A stretch of 64,000 nt of DNA from Eledone cirrhosa (lineage: Eukaryota), in contig OZ024743.1 of the NCBI GenBank assembly GCA_964016885.1, forward strand, positions 332,196,001-332,260,000. Reading direction: 5' to 3'. Positions 8,463 through 46,690 of this stretch are shown one piece after another. The translations under genes were made by a program, and so were the position numbers. The notes below the pieces were generated by a model. It ran no database searches and was not told the origin of the DNA. It saw only the letters and a list, made by a program, of their open reading frames with translations. Every line of letters starts with the position of its first letter. The first letter of the stretch is position 1.

Positions 8463-10572
8463 GTGAAAAGATGTGTGGAGATGATCATTGGGAGTGGGGT
8501 GGAGTTCAGCGATGTCGACACAGACGAACTGGGCCTCCTACTTAGACTTACCTACGACACTGACTACCTAGACAGCCATGACCTTAGACGTTTCTGCCCT
8601 AGTAGACCTATAAGAGGTAGACCCCTCACCATAACCTCAATGGCAAAAATGACTCCCATGGGAAGGTGGATTGGGTGGACCAAAGCTATACGGAACCCCA
8701 AAACAATGATCAGGTAAGAAAAATGGTCGCACATGCAATAGGGGCTAGTATCAAAACTACCCTAAAGGGCCACATATTTAAGTTCAACGAGAAGATCTAC
8801 ACCCAAAATGAGGGAGCAGCCATCGGCGTCAGCATAGCTGGTGATGTTACCAACCTTTTCATGGTATGGTGGGAAAGGAGACTTAAAGATCTCCTTAATG
8901 AGAGCTCCATAGACCTCATCATGTACTCTCGTTGTGTAGACGATATCAATATAGTTATAAGAACACCTCCACTAGAGAGCACTAACAAGTTTGATTTAGA
9001 ACGTAGCACGATGGAAAGCATCCAGCAGATAGCTAATTCCATACACCAGAGTATAACTGTAACTATCGACTTCCCTTCCAAACACCCTAACAATAGACTA
9101 CCTGTATTAGACACAGAACTCTGGATTAACACTATAGACGAGAGAGCCCAATTTCTCCACTCACACTATGCTAAACCCATGGCCTCCAAATACCTGATAC
9201 TCAAAAACTCAGCAATGTCCAGTAGTGCTAAGTTTAATATTCTGATCGCAGATTTGGTACGAGTGATGAAGAATGTGTCCCGCATGTGCGACCCAACAGA
9301 AATGGAAAGACACATCCAACACTTCATCAACCGCATGCAGTTCTCTGGCTACAACCAAAGAGACAGAGTCAGAGTATACGAAGGAGCCATGGAGAAGTAT
9401 AAGACCCTCATAGAACTGGACATGAAAGGAATTTGCCCATTATACAGGAGCAAATCATGGAATAGCTTAGATAGGGCTAGACATAAGATAGGGAAAGCCA
9501 CCTCATGGTACGACAACCAGAGATACCAGAGTGTCATGTTTGTGGACGCTACCCCTGGAGGGAAATTAGCTAACCAGTGTAGAAAGGCCCTGAGAACGAC
9601 CCACTTAAAAATAAAGGTGGTAGAAAAGCCAGGAACCACCATAAAATCCCTGATCAGCAAAACCTATCCTTTTAAGAAAACCCACTGTACCAATAGGAAA
9701 TGTATCATATGTAAGGTGAACCCCGGATAAACTGTAAAACTAGAAACGTAGTCTATAGCATAAGATGTACAGAGGGTACTTGCAGAAAGATGACAACAAC
9801 ATACATAGGTGAGACAGCTCGTAGCATAGGTGAAAGGATAGACCAACACTGTGGGGAACTAATAAGGACGAAAAAACGGGTCAGTACTATACGAACATGC
9901 TAGACAACAACATGACGGTAACATAGACAACATAGAAATTAGAATAATATCTAAACATAGAAATGACCCAGCAGATAGGCAAATCAGAGAGGCCAGTGAA
10001 ATAGAAATTAAAAGACCAAGACTAAACAGAAAGAATGAATGGAATAGCAACAACACCAAAACAAACAACACTCACCTAAGAGAAGTATAAATAAGTAAAT
10101 AAAATAAAATAAATAAATAAATACATACACAAGCACAATAACAACAAGCACATAAACACACATTAGTCACCCATCACACAGCAAACAAAACATTATACAC
10201 ACACGCAAACGCATGTGCAAAGAAGACAAAATAAAATAAACAAACAAGCAAATAAATAAATAAATATATAGACAGACTGAATAAAAATGGCGTAGACATA
10301 CAATACAACAGGAAGAAAATATAGCACCACTGACGATGTTGCAGATGTGCAACGAAAGATTTATGATAAACTATATATATGTGTTTGTGTCTATATTGTA
10401 TCTGTATTATTTTTGACCGTCGGTCAGTCAATGGCAACATTGAGGACCGAGTAAGTCAGATTACCGATATAAAAGACACAGAAGCGAGAAGCGAAAACCA
10501 CCCAAACAGTGAGTGTGTTCTGTTATTAATTCTGGCAATATTACACAAATATGACCCTCCCCAAGTATAACA

Positions 10573-11432: not shown

Positions 11433-14040
11433 GTGGCTTTTCAATACACCGACAGTATGCTGACAAAGGACCATCTTCCGTTATCACTTAAGAATATACC
11501 CATACCACCAAGGGGTACTTATGAAAAGCAGCTTATAGCCAGCGTTAATTCGTTTGTAAGGAGAATAAGATGGCGCACATTCCACTTCGATAGGCGCCGT
11601 AGCGCCCCACTAGAGAGTCCATCGAATAATAAGTATGGATTTAGGACATTTAGGAGCCCGCCCCATAACCCTCTACTCGATAAATTTGAGAGTGATCTAT
11701 TGTCTCTTGTCCGGTCTATTAGGTATAAAAGGAAAAACGGTAAGCGTAGCGGCTTCCAAACTAAGTTAGAATCACTAGTTAAATCTTTTAAGGACAGAAA
11801 TTGTATACTCATACCCTCGGACAAGACTAAGAATATGTACAACCTGAGTTATGAAGAATACCGCGGATTCATATACAATGAGCTACATAAAAACTATAAA
11901 AAAACCACTGTAGCCAACCTAAATGAGATTAACAGGGAGGCTAAAGTGATAGTAACGAAGCTAGGATTAGAGAAATGCACACAACCTTACACCCCCCGAT
12001 AACCAAGGTTCACATTGAAAGATCATAAGGAGGACTTTGCAAGTAGCCCCTCTGTCAGGCTCATTAGCCCCTCTAAATCTGACATAGGGATTATAAGTAA
12101 AAAAATACTAGATGAAGTCATACCGAAAGTTAAGGACAGGATTAGCCTGGACCTATGGGGAAACACTGCAGAAGTGATAAAGTGGTTCTCAAGCATTAGC
12201 AACCACAAATCACTACGCTTCATCCAGTTCGATATAGACTCCTACTATACGTCTATATCCCACATACTACTGAATAAGGCGCTCATGATGGCAACGCGGA
12301 CGGGTGGACTCACTAGATCCCAGACTGACATAGTCCTTGCCGCTCGTAAAACAATTATCACATTTGAGAATGAATTGTGGACGCGCAAGAACACTCGTAA
12401 TAACTTCGACATCACTATGGGATCTAGTGACTCAGCACAGGTGACAGACCTCGTCGGATTGTACTTGCTCAAGGACCTCAACGAGCAGTTCCCACACCTC
12501 AGAGGTGGGCTATACCGTGACGACGCATTGCTTACTGTGGAGTTTAAACGACACAACCTAGAAAGAACTAGAAAGGACCTATATAAATTCTTCAAGAATT
12601 TTAACCTATCAATAACTATGGATAGAAATAGTAAGGTAGTCAACTTTCTAGATGCCACACTAGACCTAGATAAGTTAGAATATGCACCGTACCATAAACC
12701 TAACGAAAGGCTGACATACGTCAATGCCAACTCCAACCACCCAGGCTCAGTCCTCAAAGCAATAGTTAAGGGAGTATCTAGTAGGATTAGCGGACTATCT
12801 AGCAGCGTGACCGCATTTAAGGCGAACGCGGAGTATTACAATAAGGCGCTAACTGGGTCAAAGCACAAAGATAAACTCCATTATGTTGAGACAGGCGGCA
12901 CCACCCCACCACCCCAACCCAGCACTGTAATCACGCATATGTCCATGGGAGATGGAGGGAGAGCTAGAAAGACGAATAGGGACAATAGGAATTTAGCTAA
13001 GAACAACACTCGCAATGCATACACGGATAGGGCCCACGCACCTGGAAAGCGCTACGCCGCCCCAAGCAAGTCCAACAGTGAAAACGGGGGCCAGAGGCCT
13101 AGGAGTTTTGAAACCAACACACATACCACTGGGAGCCCAGCAACCACACCTGGTAGAACCCGTAATAATATAGATGAAGGGAGGGTAAGCAGCATAGGGG
13201 ATAAGAAACGCAGTGGAAGGAATAGAAGACATGATAGTACCTTCTTTAACCCGCCCTTCAGCTCTAATATTACTACAGACCTCCCCAAATTTTTTTCTCT
13301 TTAATAGATAGGAACTTCCCCCCAGGTAGTAGGTACGGTAGTGTCATCAATAAGAATACTATCAAACTATCGTACTCAACAACCCCTAATCTGGCCTCAC
13401 ACCTAGCTCATACCAATAAGAGTAAGATTAAAGAGGGACTTAAGGCCATCCGAAATAGGAACCATGCCAGTACACACGACAACACGGGACCAACCCACTG
13501 AATGAAAGACCCAGGGGGATAACAGGCAATAGAACCGGTCCCACTAGGCAGCCCCGCGGCCGCTTGGAGGGACATGCACCCCTGATTGAGGAGCATGACC
13601 CTATTAGAAAGTGTAATTGCAGACGGAAGGACAAATGCCCACTAGCTGGACACTGCCTTATTAGCAACGTAGTATATGCTTGTAACGTAACCACAGACAC
13701 GTATACTAAGACGTATGTGGGGTCAACCGCTAACCAGTTCAAAACGAGTTTCAACACCCACCAGCATAGCTTCCGATATGAGAAGCTTAAAAATACCACG
13801 TCGTTAGCGGGGCACATACATAACTTAAAACAAACAAAAACCCCCTACACACTAAGCTGGAGATGCCTTACTAAAGCTCCTCCATATAGCTCGTTGAGCA
13901 GGTTTTGTAGCCTGTGCCTAACTGAATCTCATGCCATAGTATTCTCAGGACTTAACTTGCTCAACAGGAGGTCAGAAATCTTCTCGTCCTGCCCCCATAC
14001 TATACTTAGCTCTTTCTTTTTCTTCAGACCAGACACATAG
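11433..14040 (+). pseudogene. PLE polyprotein (RT + Cys-rich linker + GIY-YIG), disrupted
   Basis: SLKNIPIP, RRIRWR, FDIDSYYTSI, MGSSDSA, LYRDDA, NFLD, YHKPN..SNHP, FFNPP, KLSYS, CNCRRKDKCPLAGHC, VVY..YVG, CSLC, LLNRRSEIFSSCPH. In-frame TAA at 12000, frameshift at ~13300, further disruption at ~13500. Confidence 0.9.
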
Positions 14041-15991: not shown

Positions 15992-16761
15992 AGGGATTTT
16001 TTGAAGGCTTTTTGAATTAACCTTTAATTGATTAGTTTCTTTCAACTTAGTAGGGATTATCAAAACTTCGTAAATTTTCTGAAATTTTTTAACGTGATCT
16101 CTGGGGAAGAAAATTTTTTTCTTTCAAAAAAAATTTTTTTCTCTCGAAGTAATTTTTTAGGAAACTTTATATTTTTTTAGGAAACTTTATATTTTTATTT
16201 TTTTATTTATTTATTTATTTTTTTAGTCTCTTAATCTCTTCTGGTTTGTTAGGTTTATTGGGACTTATAAGCTTTATGCACTTATGGAGGGATTTTTTAA
16301 GGTGCTTCTACGAGGTCCCAAGTCCTTTACTTTTAATGCGTAAATTATAAATTATCTCATTTTTAACCTTCAATCAATGACTCTTAACTCCCCATAACCC
16401 ATCCCTTTTACAACTCCGACAACTAACATAAAAGAGCCCCCTTAGAATATAGACGCCAAATATACAAGCGGAGCTGCTGATGTATACCACAATTTCAAAC
16501 TGCTAATCTTGAGTGAAACGTTGATGTAAATAATGAACTTACAATCACATGTTATATGCCTTGAAAAGTCCCACCATATGGTCGGACGAAACGGCTGTCG
16601 GCAATAAACTTGTTGTAATGTCATAATAGTTCCTTTGTTCTTTTTCATTAATATTTCTGCTCTGCTTATACGCATAGAGCTTAACTAGCTACCGTCGCAT
16701 ATTTGGTAGGTCAGGCGTGATCATCGCGATTCACATACGACCTACCATACATCTTGCTTAT
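15992..16761 (+). repeat. 3' pseudo-LTR
   Basis: Direct copy of 10611-11380; ends in a (TA)n array. Confidence 0.9.
16552..16607 (+). ncRNA. Hammerhead ribozyme, U3-A8 variant (3' pLTR)
   Basis: Identical to 11171-11226; predicted cleavage after 16599. Confidence 0.75.
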
Positions 16762-36123: not shown

Positions 36124-37205
36124 ATCATCATCATCGTTTAACGTCCATCTTCCACGCTTGTATGGGTCTGGACAGGAGTTTTCCCATTTGAGGCAAGATT
36201 GGTTGTCCTGGTGCTATAGGACTGTCTGGCGGGTTTTCTAAGGCTGGATGCCCTTCCTAACACCAACCACGTTTACAGTGTGGACTGGGAGGTTTTTACC
36301 GTGTTACCTACACGGCCACATTACAGCGTGGACTGTGTTTTTTTGTCGTGACACCTACACGACCTCATTTGTTTCGGACTGGATGTTGTGGTACCAACAT
36401 AACTTCACATTTAAGGGGGTGATGTGGATGGGGTGGGGGTAGTGGGACGGGGGTGTATTTTGTTAGAGGTGCCTACTGACTGTAGGTTTGCTTTGTACTT
36501 AGGCAAGGCGGGTCTTCTGTATTACTGTGTAGCGCTAAAGATCTCGATCCAGTGACATTGTCTTGGAGAGGTGTAAGTGTGTGAGGTCGGAATTTATCAA
36601 GTCATCCCAGGTTTTTCTGGGTCTGCCTACTCCATGGCTACCGTCTATTTTTATCACCCTGCACTTTTTTATACAGCTGTCGTCTTTCATGCGCATCACG
36701 TGACCGCACCAATGTAGTCTTCTCTCGAGTAAACAACATCTGATCCCTCTTATTTCTAATTTCTCCCTTAGTTCGTTTATGCTTTGCCGTTCACGTATAT
36801 TACTATTACACATCCAGTGGAGCATGCAAGCTTTTAAACGAATGCCCATGTCTCAATGCCATGTAACATTGCTGTTCGTATGCAGGCATCATACAGCCTG
36901 CCTTTCATTTTTAGAGAGAACCCTTTAGCGGCCAATAGTGGTATAAGCCCTCTGAACTTTTTCCATCCAGTTCTGACTCTAGCTACTGTACTTTCAGAGC
37001 ACCCTCCACCACTGCTGATTTTGTCACCCAAGTAACGGAAGCTGTCCACTATTTCTATAGAACCATCTGTGCAATGGAATGAGCTAGTATTCTGTGGGCA
37101 CTTGCTGCTACTTATTGCACCTGAGCACTGGCCACATATAAAATCTATATTCTTAGTTAGCTTACCTGTGATCCAACTACATCTTTTTTGCACCCATACT
37201 TTGCA
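36124..37205 (-). mobile_element. RTE LINE family B, second 5'-truncated copy
   Basis: Colinear with 6117-7371; inserted into a CACAGACACACACTCAACCACCAGCC-(TA)n minisatellite present on both sides. Confidence 0.92.
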
Positions 37206-37349
37206 TATATATATATACCCACACAGACACACACTCAACCACCAGCCATACATATATATATATATATACCCATACAGACACAAACTCAACCACCAGCCAT
37301 ACATATATATATATATATATATATACCCATACACAGACACACACTCAAC

Positions 37350-37390
<41 letters not shown>

Positions 37391-37934
37391 CCACACAGAC
37401 ACACACTCAACCACCAGCCATATATATATATATACCCACACAGACACACACTCAACCACCAGCCATACATATATATATATATATACCCATACACACACCA
37501 AGTATATATAACATCATACATAAGTAGAAATGATTATATTAAAATATATCAGATAGAAGAAAAAAAATTACCTGAGAGTGTAATCACAGAATTATCACAA
37601 ACATAACTAATTAAATGTAGAAAAACTGAATAGAAAATGGGAAAATAATCTAATTTTTCATTAAAAGCAAAAGAATATTTTAATTTAATTCTTTAATTCT
37701 AACACAAGATAAATAACCATGGAATAGAGAAACTGAATATTTTAAACTATATTATAGAATTTATTTTCTCTCTGCTAACAAGTGTTTTACAGTCAATTTT
37801 TCTTCTAAAACAGGGGTTAGCTTTGCAGGGATGGGGTAGCTTCTCATTGTCTGCAATCCCTTGACTTTCATTTCCTCTATCATGGTTTGGTCTTACCGTA
37901 TCACTACTTCCTTCTAAATTCATTCATATCACTC

Positions 37935-38215
37935 CTCTCACTCAGTCACCTTCATCTTTCTTCAACACATGACCCAGCCATCTCATTCTATTTCTCTTCA
38001 CAACATTCATCACTAGCTCTATTCCTCTCATCCAGTCACTTTCATCTTTCCTCAACACATGACCTAACCATCTCATTCTATTTCTCTTCACAACATCAAT
38101 CACTGGTTCTATTCCTCTCATCCAGTCACCTTCATCTTTCTTCAACACATGACCCAACCATCTCATTCCATTTCTCTTCACAACATTCATCACTGGCTCT
38201 ATTCCTCTCATCCAA
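37935..38215 (-). repeat. 90-bp tandem repeat (3 copies) derived from RTE coding sequence
   Basis: Translates as WMRGIEPVMNVVKRNGMRWLGHVLKKDEGD three times; compare [14 protein letters not shown]. Confidence 0.8.
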
Positions 38216-38502
38216 GATGTCTGGTATATTCCAGCTTTTTGTATTTTCAATTCAAATCAATTCAAATCACATAACTTGTCACCTAGTTTAACACCACCCC
38301 AACCTGAACCTTGGATGCCTTAACTCGTTTGATACCTTAAACCGGCCTGATTCCACGATACTGTTGTTTATATTAAAATGTTCATTTATATATATATTAT
38401 AAAGAGTTGTGACCCAACGACTGAGCTCTTGCTATTTCAACTCTGTTGAGTAATGGTCTAATTAGTTTCAAACTTGTTCTATCCTGATATATATATATAT
38501 CT

Positions 38503-38702
38503 ATAGGAACGAGTAGGACCCCGACGGCTGAGCTCAAGCCGTTTCGACGGCTAATTCTGAATTAGTCCAGAATTAACCGTCGAAACGGCTTGAGCTCAGC
38601 CGTCGGGGTCCTACTTGTTCCTATTACCCACTCTACTACCCTAAGTATTGAGTACTTTGGTGCGTTATGGTCCACCTGGTTCCTTACCACATTTCCTTCG
38701 TT
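38503..38702 (+). mobile_element. Short PLE-derived element: 57-bp-arm palindrome holding half a hammerhead, plus a ~78-bp tail, inserted in (TA)n
   Basis: Arms 38503-38559 and 38568-38624; homologous to 46528-46690 in opposite orientation. Confidence 0.7.
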
Positions 38703-39199
38703 ATATATATATATATAAACTTACCATTATAATTTTATACAAGAAATTTTCTTAAGTTATGATCCAAACACTAACTTAATGAGAAAATTACACTGAATTT
38801 CTTCAAATTCTTGATCATTTTCAAAATATTGAAAATAAAATAGGCAGCAGATTTCATTGGAAATATGGTAAGAAAGGGTTAAGTAGAAATTATTCTGTTG
38901 CAAACATTGAGAGCACGACTCTAGTTTTAAAATATCCTCCTTTCAGAAGGATAATAAACACTGACCTTCCTTCTTCATTTCATTTTCATTTCATTTTACG
39001 TCCACTTTTGCCTGCTTGCAGGGTGGGACGGGAACTGATTCTGGCTTGATAAGTAAACTGAGTAAACTGGAGCAATGTGAAATAAAGTGTCTTACTCAAG
39101 GAAACAACACATCACCCGGTCTGAGAATTGAACTCACAACCTTTCGATTGCACTAAGCCATGTGCCTCTTCATTAAATAGTATTAAATAAATCATCATT

Positions 39200-39720
39200 T
39201 TATGTCCACTTTTCCATTCTTCATAGGTTGAACAGGCCTTTTCCACACTTGCATGGCTTGAACGGGTCTTTTCCACGCTTGCATGGGTTGAACAGGTCTT
39301 TTCCACACTTGCATAGGTTGAATGGGTCTGTTCCACGCTTGCATGGGTTGGACATGTCTTTCTTAAGTTTGCACAGGTTGGACGTGTCTTGCCCATGCTT
39401 GCATAGAGTGGACAGGTCTTTTCCATGTTTGCATAGATTGGACGGGTCTTTTCCAGCACAGTATCCCTCCACTTATTGTGTCATCTGCTCAGGGAACTTC
39501 AGCAATTTGGGGTCAGCTCTCACCACCTCTATTCCTGTCTTCTTTGGTCTTCCTTTACTAGTTTCCTTTCACTGGGATTTTTTCAGCACTTCTTCACTGA
39601 ACAACCCTCAGCTATATATAATCAAATAGCCATACCAACACATATTTCTCTCTTACACACTATATCTTATTCCTCTTATCCCCAGTTTTTTTGTTTTTTT
39701 CTCACCTCATCTAGAAATGT
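39200..39720 (-). mobile_element. Decayed RTE 3' end whose terminal 30 bp are amplified ~8 times (39220-39460)
   Basis: Unit TTTTCCACACTTGCATGGGTTGAACAGGTC, translating as KTRPTHASVE repeats. Confidence 0.75.
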
Positions 39721-40499: not shown

Positions 40500-41095
40500 T
40501 CCAGTGAATTTACTACTACTACTACAACCATCATTGGCAATCAAGTATGACGTGGTATCATGTAACATTGAATTAACTACCACCACTACTACTACTACTA
40601 CTACTACAGCCATCATTGGCAATCAAGTATGACTTGGTAGCATTACTATTGAATTAACTTATGCCACTACTACTACAACTATTGGTACTGCTACTACAAC
40701 TATTGGTACTACTACTACAACTATTGGTACTACTACAACTATTGGTACTACTACTACAACTATTGGTACTACTACTACAACTATTGGTACTACTACTACT
40801 ACTACAGCATCAATGGCAATCAAGTATGACTTAGTAGCATGTACCATTGAATTAAATGCTACTACTATTGCTACTACTACTGCTACTACTACTGCTACTA
40901 CTACTACTACTACCATCACTGCCAATCAAGTATGACTTGGTAGCATGTAACATTGAATTAACTACTATGACTACTACTACAACTACTGCTGCTACTACTA
41001 CCATCATTTCCAATCAAGTATGATTTGGTAGAGTGTAACATTGCATTAACTAACATCTGTCACCACTGGCAATCAAGTTTGACTTGGTATCTGAT
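40500..41095 (+). repeat. Compound repeat: GGCAATCAAGTATGACTTGGTAGCATGTAACATTGAATTAA interleaved with (CTA)n
   Basis: About 6 recurrences with variable (CTA)n spacers. Confidence 0.8.
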
Positions 41096-45960: not shown

Positions 45961-46527
45961 TACAAACATCAATGTGAAACCTTGTTTTGTTTTATATATA
46001 TATATATATATATATAGCATGGAACAAACTACCTGCATCAGTTGTTAGCTGTCGAGACACTGCATCCTTTAAAACATCCATGCTTCCTGAGATTCGCCAA
46101 CACTACTCCTAATATTCCCCCTTCCATACATATACACACATGTATATCATGACTCGTACACTATTCACTTCCCTGACATTTGTATATTATTCTATGTACT
46201 ATACATGCATCTTTGAGGAGTTGTGGTGCACCTGAGCACTGTACACAATAATTTCATTATTATTATTATTAGAACTAAATGAATAGAATAGCAAAAATAG
46301 ACAGGCAGAATGATTGTTTTATAAAAGTGTGTGTGTATGTGTGTACATATATGTATATAACATATCATAAACATCATTTAATGTCCACTTTCCACGCTGG
46401 CATGGGTTAGACTGATATATATATATATAACGAATGCGAGCAAGACAATCACTCTTGCCTCAAGTGGGAAAACCCCCGTCCAAACCCATGCAAGCGTGGA
46501 ACACGGACGTTAAACGATGATGATGAT

Positions 46528-46690
46528 AACGAAGGAGTTGTGGTAAGGAACCAGATGGACCAGAGTGGGTAATAGGAAAATGTATGACCCCGACGGGAGA
46601 GCTCAAGCTGTTTCGACGGCTATTTCTGGAGTCCAGAAATAGCCGTCGAAACGGCTTGAGCTCTGCCGTCGGGGTCATACATTTTCCTAT
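46528..46690 (-). mobile_element. Second half-hammerhead palindromic element
   Basis: Arms 46572-46630 and 46632-46690 (57/59 complementary); tail 46528-46571 matches 38625-38702 with an internal deletion. Confidence 0.7.

What the first reader, a model, noticed from the sequence alone, without database searches (positions are those of the whole stretch)
38503..38702. Half-hammerhead palindrome: element folds back exactly at ribozyme stem II
Seen: the right arm reads stem II (GACGG.TAATTCTG..CAGAATTA.CCGTC)-GAAA-stem III (CGGCT-TGAGCTC-AGCCG)-TC-GGGGTCC. Where CUGANGA should be there is instead a mirror copy of GAAA/stem III/GUC, giving 57-bp arms (55 complementary) and a cleavage-site half on each strand. 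Established: PLE insertions often have inverted 5' ends. Inference: the cDNA snaps back on the stem II hairpin and self-primes, so ribozyme structure dictates the breakpoint. Alternatively this is a self-propagating palindromic mini-element, cut in trans or producing hairpin RNA.
Basis: partly seen in the sequence, partly recalled or inferred. Interest (0 to 1): 0.75.

Follow-up and report, generated by a model that had tools for sequence, protein, structure and literature searches.

The report
Penelope run-off palindromes record ribozyme cuts
This 200-base mirror-image DNA is one of about 20,000 short leftovers of an active Penelope-like jumping gene, each likely built anew from two separate DNA copies of the same RNA joined head to head, and a few hundred sister copies stop exactly at the gene's predicted ribozyme cut site, which would show that the ribozyme cuts in living cells.

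Summary
The 57-bp inverted repeat is real and carries the 3' half of a type I hammerhead on each strand. It is one of at least 19,841 short palindromes in this genome, inserted in (TA)n. The parent is an active 3.5-kb Penelope-like retrotransposon with Hydra-clade motifs; its hammerhead has a U3:A8 core (YUGANAA), not CUGANGA, and a long stem II. The data fit twin priming from two internal start sites on one RNA, with end joining. Most arms stop 35-47 nt upstream of the cut site (58 of 91), likely an RNA 5' end; upstream hammerheads are read through (0 of 24 stop there). A further 321 copies end at or next to the predicted scissile bond on both arms, indirect evidence of cleavage in vivo. The architecture is published; I found the mechanism in no paper searched. 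This scan noted twin priming and cut-site ends before in other genomes. No RNA data were available.

The parts
38487..38505 (.). (TA)n target microsatellite, left flank; target duplication not resolvable
   Evidence: 58 of 62 short sister copies have a TA-repeat left flank
38503..38559 (-). Tail-less arm: inverted copy of the parent pLTR from about +17 to -37 relative to the predicted hammerhead cut site; inferred second cDNA
38560..38561 (.). 2-nt junction insert between the arms
   Evidence: one search compared with parent arms
38562..38581 (+). 3' strand of the parent's extended stem II (-43 to -24); the 5' strand, core and stem I 5' strand are absent
38582..38604 (+). Hammerhead 3' half: GAAA, stem III with palindromic loop, UC; predicted cut between 38604 and 38605
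   Evidence: cut position matched by copy ends
38605..38623 (+). Stem I 3' strand with subfamily-variable bulge, ending at the inferred inner reverse-transcription start site
38624..38704 (+). About 80-nt PLE 'tail' (start of the 5' UTR of the parent), ending at the inferred outer start site
   Evidence: the same sequence runs on into the ORF in L101 and L344
38703..38717 (.). (TA)n target microsatellite, right flank
46525..46690 (-). Second short palindrome of an older subfamily, opposite orientation, arms ending at about -39/-41, tail with an internal deletion

Best explanation
The palindrome is a dead-end short insertion of an active Penelope-like retrotransposon, likely made when two reverse transcriptases prime at the two cut strands of a (TA)n target, start at two internal sites about 80 nt apart on the same RNA, run off a template boundary (likely the RNA's 5' end) 35-47 nt upstream of the hammerhead cut site, and have their two cDNA ends joined head to head. 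Shown: parent element with intact ORF and full hammerhead fold; fixed outer ends (+17 and about +99); independent, symmetric arm lengths; a sharp wall at -35 to -47; a second class ending at the cut site; microhomology and inserts at junctions. Inferred: twin priming, one RNA for both arms, end joining by the host, that the wall is an RNA 5' end (about 0.6; a transcription start at the A at -41, 29-31 nt below a TATA-like box, about 0.4), and that the U3:A8 hammerhead cleaves in vivo (about 0.8). An RNA beginning at -41 holds only the 3' half of the ribozyme, so it could not cut itself, which would explain why the half-hammerhead is copied intact.
For: Parent: L101 ORF 719 aa between two hammerhead-bearing pLTRs; many 99-100% identical open frames and tandem 3,531-bp units. 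Arm ends: of 91 tail arms 58 end at -35..-47, 2 at -48..-51, 0 at -52..-149, 16 beyond, 15 shorter; 42 of 62 tail-less arms end at -35..-47; contig depth rises about tenfold at the same place. Independence: tail arm longer 26, tail-less longer 26, equal 10 of 62; long insertions e.g. tail arm -184 v tail-less arm about 16 kb (L344/5), and the reverse in L357, L361, L362; 14 of 15 listed short-read joints link the tail-less arm to positions at or beyond +13 of the tail arm. One template: subfamily bulge identical in 84 and within one mismatch in 93 of 98; 17 mirrored variants v about 0.7 by chance; wall-ending tail arms have a short partner in 62 of 64, long ones in 0 of 10 (p 9e-11). Run-off: 321 palindromes with arms at most 12 nt apart at the cut site; of the first 50 listed, 26 end exactly at the cut on both arms with 1-7 extra letters and 13 are blunt (hand count); 20 of 20 fetched have the tail on one side. 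Junctions: microhomology 25, blunt 3, insert 34 of 62; extra T runs in 9 of 18 arms ending at -44, re-copied stem II stretches in 10 of 98. In vitro precedent: a Poseidon PLE cuts and extends both strands, starts at two internal sites that define the tail, predicted dimer (PMC11167929).
Against: No RNA data: start site, cleavage and expression are untested. If transcripts start at -41, some full-length copies should begin there; 0 of 24 do, which needs a separate (circular or read-through) template for long copies. About 6 of the first 100 tail arms end at the cut site while the partner runs to -24..-44, which one cleaved RNA does not explain; a displacement stall plus CCG/CGG microhomology would. 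Rfam finds no hammerhead and the parent fold is not more stable than shuffles (z -0.3); a window-subfamily parent did not fold as a hammerhead in the minimum-energy structure and 13 of 21 such parents have a C3.A8 mismatch. The cap-G hint at -42 (7 of 11) is confounded by template realignment. 11 wall-ending and 6 long arms had no resolvable partner and were left out of the Fisher test. Samples come from the first part of contig C1.
Confidence: 0.72

Rival explanations
1. Twin priming as above, but the wall is a block on a long RNA: the first hammerhead after initiation, held by the protein, acts like telomerase's template boundary and stops both enzymes until a rare release.
For: The wall lies on the 3' side of the stem II apex; stutter and re-copying at the wall; upstream hammerheads are passed in elongation; tail arms at the cut site with longer partners.
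Against: The enzymes pass the stronger GC-rich stems III and II and stop in a weak AU hairpin; the cut-site class shows that arm ends do mark RNA ends; TATA-like and initiator-like motifs (recalled consensus) sit at the right spacing.
Confidence: 0.15
2. One reading: one cDNA snaps back at stem II and self-primes; later deletions at the palindrome centre create the variation.
For: Self-priming was proposed for PLE inverted junctions (PMC3846280, passages); hard outer limit near the stem II apex; centre erosion of palindromes is known (recalled).
Against: Tail-less arm longer in 26 of 62, by 5 nt or more in 12, by kilobases in long copies; left arm is the perfect complement of the 3' strand, not the natural 5' strand; joints with no shared sequence; both arms ending at the cut with untemplated letters.
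Confidence: 0.06
3. Self-propagating palindromic mini-element (SINE/MITE-like, cut in trans or copied from hairpin RNA).
For: About 20,000 short copies; four centres seen twice among 98; nicking of hairpin transcripts in the loop could also give correlated short arms.
Against: 93 of 98 centres distinct; short and long copies share the same subfamily marks; the shared arm mismatch of the window copy is a rare variant (387 hits) found on either arm and never mirrored in 30; short copies lack the sequence downstream of the tail that another PLE protein needs (PMC11167929).
Confidence: 0.06
4. Ordinary MITE of a DNA transposon, hammerhead likeness by chance.
For: Inverted repeat, TA context, no Rfam hit.
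Against: 80-nt tail outside the repeat; continuous size series into an RT-endonuclease element; copy ends at the predicted cut site.
Confidence: 0.01

Closest known systems
EN+ Penelope-like insertions with inverted 5'-truncated pLTR and one-sided tail (PMC8557442 Fig. 2; Adineta Pen2a, PMC3846280)
   Same: Head-to-head inverted arms, tail at one end, partial tandems, hammerhead in the pLTR, TATA/initiator-like motifs in the pLTR
   Different: Tail about 80 nt rather than 30-40; most insertions are 120-200-nt run-off palindromes; published explanation is self-priming, data here favour twin priming
Hydra clade of PLEs (PMC8557442 section 11 and supplement; includes an Octopus family)
   Same: RW[K/R], DKT, CxCX5C linker, CxxC and CxH motifs, C-terminal GIY-YIG, (TA)n targets
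   Different: Unit 3.5 kb (published generally under 3 kb); hammerhead core U3:A8 with a long two-part stem II and 5-bp stem III, whereas the listed Hydra hammerheads have CUGANGA and short stems; no tree built with published members
Poseidon PAc in vitro mechanism (PMC11167929)
   Same: Two internal start sites defining the tail, both target strands extended
   Different: That paper does not derive the inverted ends from this and saw no RNA reads ending at the cut site; here genomic copies end there
L1 twin/dual priming (PMC2837659)
   Same: Two cDNAs primed from the two target strands, joined by microhomology
   Different: In L1 the second priming site is variable and the arms do not overlap; here both start sites are fixed and both cDNAs copy the same stretch, giving a palindrome in most insertions
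U3-A8 hammerhead variant of Schistosoma PLEs (PMC4209133); non-LTR retrozymes (10.64898/2026.07.22.740005)
   Same: Core covariation; PLE-derived type I hammerhead
   Different: Full-size helices here; the short copies are inverted and hold half a ribozyme, not tandem repeats with a whole one

Membership tests
EN+ Penelope-like element (parent) | Single ORF with RT and C-terminal GIY-YIG endonuclease | tested here: met
   719-aa ORF; YRDD and YIG motifs invariant or near-invariant in 73 aligned relatives; relative P0001 passes Pfam GIY-YIG cut-off; the query itself has no Pfam or PDB hit; structure job not returned
EN+ Penelope-like element (parent) | pLTRs from partial tandems, inverted 5'-truncated copy, one-sided tail | tested here: met
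Hydra clade | RWK, DKT, CxCX5C, CxxC and CxH motifs | tested here: met
   RWR 37, DKT 117, CxCX5C 572, CxxC 670, CxH 698 (features)
Hydra clade | Insertion into (TA)n | tested here: met
   58 of 62
Hydra clade | Canonical CUGANGA hammerhead and length generally under 3 kb (descriptive traits) | tested here: not met
   core YUGANAA; unit 3,531 bp; hence filed as Hydra-like
Hydra clade | Phylogenetic placement with published members; absence of CCHH and IFD | not tested
Type I hammerhead (parent pLTR) | Three-way junction, U4 G5 A6 N7 A9, GAAA, G10.1-C11.1, NUH triplet | tested here: met
   L101 minimum-energy fold has this topology; positions 4, 5, 6, 9 invariant and 7 variable in 87 related arms, part selected by a core pattern
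Type I hammerhead (parent pLTR) | 3:8 base pair | tested here: inconclusive
   U-A 72, C.A 14, U.G 1 of 87; U3-A8 is a described natural covariation
Type I hammerhead (parent pLTR) | Self-cleavage at NUH | not testable with these tools
   indirect: copies ending exactly at the site; no Rfam match
Type I hammerhead (window copy) | 5' core and stem I 5' strand present | tested here: not met
MITE | Inverted repeats at both termini, uniform internal sequence, DNA-transposase partner | tested here: not met
   tail outside the repeat, 93 of 98 distinct centres, RT parent
MITE | Target-site duplication | tested here: inconclusive
   both flanks are (TA)n
Non-LTR retrozyme | Tandem units each with a complete type I hammerhead, no ORF | tested here: not met
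   single inverted copies with half a motif (definition)

The most novel reading that the evidence does not exclude
The genome holds a fossil read-out of three RNA forms of one PLE: a capped transcript that starts inside stem II and so carries a disarmed half-ribozyme (about 80% of insertions, short palindromes), a ribozyme-cut linear RNA (copies ending at GUC), and a circular monomer without a 5' end that is copied rolling-circle fashion into the long and multi-unit copies. The hammerhead would then be the switch between abortive and productive transposition, and twin priming from two fixed sites the general origin of PLE inverted ends.
Probability: 0.3. Interest if true: 0.8.

Novelty: new variant of a known kind. 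Interest (0 to 1): 0.56.

Why it matters
How PLEs get their inverted ends is unexplained (PMC8557442 names it an open task; PMC3846280 proposed self-priming), and the in vivo activity of PLE hammerheads is called 'still a mystery' (PMC7761336). This family supplies thousands of natural single-event records that discriminate between models, many intact active ORFs for biochemistry, and exact predicted RNA ends to test. About 20,000 self-contained hairpins could also be ADAR or small-RNA substrates (palindromic repeats are heavily edited in frog, PMC5625713); untested here.

Tried and rejected
CUGANGA parents: 39 genome hits, 30 viewed, were palindrome centres, unrelated flanks or a loop variant, not a shared parent. 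Tail-only DNA search returned nothing because common words are skipped. Inherited arm mismatch (suggested by the biased top-30) rejected. Splice acceptor at -40 as the wall: none of 24 junction inserts of 5 nt or more showed a common upstream exon. Enrichment of cut-site copies in the U3:A8 subfamily: 39 v 10 matches the background 43 v 14, dropped. Mirrored A-to-G editing marks: 0 of 17 mirrored variants. Cap-G at -42: 7 of 11, confounded. One search had an off-by-one anchoring bug and was redone; the x=0 bin is inflated by 5-G variants and was not used. No RNA holder listed. Pfam, PDB and Rfam gave no hit for the query. Covariation not tested: parents are 92% alike. The structure prediction had not finished at the last collection, so no fold search was run. 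(TA-flanked tail arms) was viewed but not tallied.

Full report
Observation. The window holds a 57-nt inverted repeat at 38503-38559/38568-38624, 96% complementary, folding far better than shuffles (z -17.4). The right arm reads GAAA, stem III, UC, then a G-rich strand, followed by about 80 nt of unique tail; both ends sit in (TA)n. Rfam finds nothing in the window. A second, older copy lies at 46525-46690. Positions below are counted from the predicted cut site (38604/38605).

Family size. A 19-nt arm word has 62,608 exact hits in G000; 19,841 places have two such arms facing each other within 80 nt. The genome is 3.0 Gb; the host looks like an octopod from recalled repeat types, which I did not test.

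Parent. Among the first 30 arm hits several continued upstream into a shared non-palindromic sequence. These belong to a retrotransposon: L101 has a 719-aa ORF between two pLTRs with RWR, DKT, YRDD, CxCX5C, YIG, CxxC and CxH motifs that are conserved in 72 relatives at about 40% identity and match the Hydra clade description (PMC8557442, section 11 read whole; supplement part 2). Of 129 scored genomic matches to the N-terminal 307 aa, all are 96-100% identical and many lie in long open frames; L344/345 holds four identical 3,531-bp tandem units. The tail is the start of the 5' UTR. No tree with published members was built, the unit is longer and the ribozyme differs, so I call it Hydra-like.

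Hammerhead. The parent pLTR folds as a type I three-way junction with bulged stem I, a two-part stem II and stem III (L101; not more stable than shuffles, and a parent of the window's subfamily gave another minimum-energy fold). The core is YUGANAA: U3:A8 in 72, C3.A8 in 14, U3.G8 in 1 of 87 related arms, position 7 variable (part of these were selected with a core pattern, which has 4,299 genome hits). U3-A8 is a described covariation in Schistosoma PLEs (PMC4209133, passages). CUGANGA parents were not found (39 hits, 30 viewed).

Where arms end. From the first 90 hits of a tail-side pattern of the window's subfamily (6,756 hits) I measured 91 tail arms: 15 end within 34 nt of the cut, 58 at -35..-47, 2 at -48..-51, none at -52..-149, 16 beyond; 42 of 62 tail-less arms also end at -35..-47. 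Summed contig depth in run X4 rises about tenfold there (possibly the same sample as the assembly). The wall is the 3' side of the stem II apex. It is not a general stop: of 30 intact-ORF loci, 24 run 241 nt or more past the upstream hammerhead, 5 break between tail and ORF, 1 was not scored, none stops at the wall (one of the 24 is the reference itself).

Two cDNAs, not a snap-back. In 62 short palindromes the tail arm is longer in 26, the tail-less arm in 26, equal in 10. A tail-less cDNA cannot template the tail and a shorter tail arm cannot template a longer partner. Long insertions show the same two fixed outer ends with kilobase differences in both directions. In short-read contigs, 14 of the 15 listed joints (of 99) link the tail-less arm to +13 or beyond, so the arms share almost nothing. 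Junctions show microhomology (25), blunt joins (3) or inserts (34), including a 39-nt copy of flanking DNA, T runs (9 of 18 arms ending at -44) and re-copied stem II stretches (10 of 98). This fits the in vitro behaviour of a Poseidon element: both strands cut and extended, two internal start sites defining the tail, predicted dimer (PMC11167929, parts 1-2 of 4 and passages), and resembles L1 twin priming (PMC2837659, passages). Self-priming was the published proposal (PMC3846280, passages).

One RNA. The subfamily bulge is identical on both arms in 84 and within one change in 93 of 98; 17 variants are mirrored against about 0.7 expected, while 119 are on one arm only, so arms are not being homogenised (67 copies). 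Wall-ending tail arms have a short partner in 62 of 64 resolved cases, long ones in 0 of 10 (p 9e-11; 17 unresolved left out). The wall is therefore a property of the template.

Cut-site class. 321 palindromes have arms at most 12 nt apart at the cut site. By hand count of the first 50: 26 end exactly at the cut on both arms with 1-7 extra letters, 13 are blunt (ambiguous with a CG microhomology), 2 are within one letter, 9 have 3-6 nt more on at least one arm. All 20 fetched have the tail on one side only. Of the first 100 tail arms found without requiring upstream sequence (8,748 hits), 25 were new, 22 were viewed and 8 begin within one letter of the cut; in about 6 of these the partner is longer, which the simple model does not explain. 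These ends are the best evidence that the ribozyme cuts in vivo and that arm ends mark RNA ends.

What the wall is. By analogy it is likely an RNA 5' end. An initiator-like YA lies at -41 (and -45) with a TATA-like box 29-31 nt upstream (consensus motifs recalled; similar motifs noted in an Adineta pLTR). A transcript starting there holds half a ribozyme and cannot cut itself. A loop cut at the same bonds or a protein-held boundary remain possible; splicing was not supported. Long copies need another template, circular or read-through; this is inference. No RNA run was listed.

Not self-propagating, not a MITE. 93 of 98 centres differ; short and long copies share subfamily marks; the window's arm mismatch is a rare, unmirrored variant.

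Novelty. The architecture, clade and core variant are published. Searches found no paper deriving PLE inverted ends from twin priming or reading hammerhead cleavage from copy ends; subscription papers are not covered, and supplements other than those of PMC8557442 were not seen. A review calls the in vivo role of these ribozymes a mystery (PMC7761336, passages). I also saw part 1 of 5 of the retrozyme preprint and passages of PMC5625713. After I had stated my reading, the scan's notes showed the same conclusions for other genomes; they are unchecked and not counted as support.

Verdict. Real feature; a by-product class of an active Hydra-like PLE; new variant of a known kind; interest 0.56.

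Noticed in passing
L344/L345 (G000:C1:437195500-437215300): Insertion of about 16 kb with four identical 3,531-bp units on the tail-less arm and a 184-nt tail arm; fits rolling-circle or long read-through copying.
   Followed up: partly
L040, L045, L056, L087, L184, L257: Palindromes of unrelated, apparently captured DNA next to an arm end, suggesting snap-back synthesis during end joining.
   Followed up: no
L076, L113, L277 and other parents of the window's subfamily: 13 of 21 long arms carry a C3.A8 mismatch in the core, predicted to weaken cleavage, yet the subfamily is abundant.
   Followed up: partly
protein list: 2,054 relatives at E 1e-10 or better, about 40% identical and mostly unnamed: the Hydra-like clade is far larger than the few dozen published families.
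   Followed up: no
window 11977-12134 and 10228-10270, 16190-16220: Decayed fragments matching the parent element (72-91%).
   Followed up: no
window 36834-37406 (-): Fragment of another non-LTR retrotransposon ORF (RTE-like by recall), common in many fetched loci.
   Followed up: no
window 37933-38214, 39192-39485, 40635-40930: Minisatellites of 90 bp x3, 30 bp x7 and 21-bp-type units.
   Followed up: no
L031, L046, L053: Three arms follow the same unrelated repeat at nearly the same point; possibly a preferred target or a chimeric family.
   Followed up: no
runs X5, X6: Contigs from two other coded organisms carry the same pLTR, one with a 30+30-nt palindrome; low depth, not examined.
   Followed up: no
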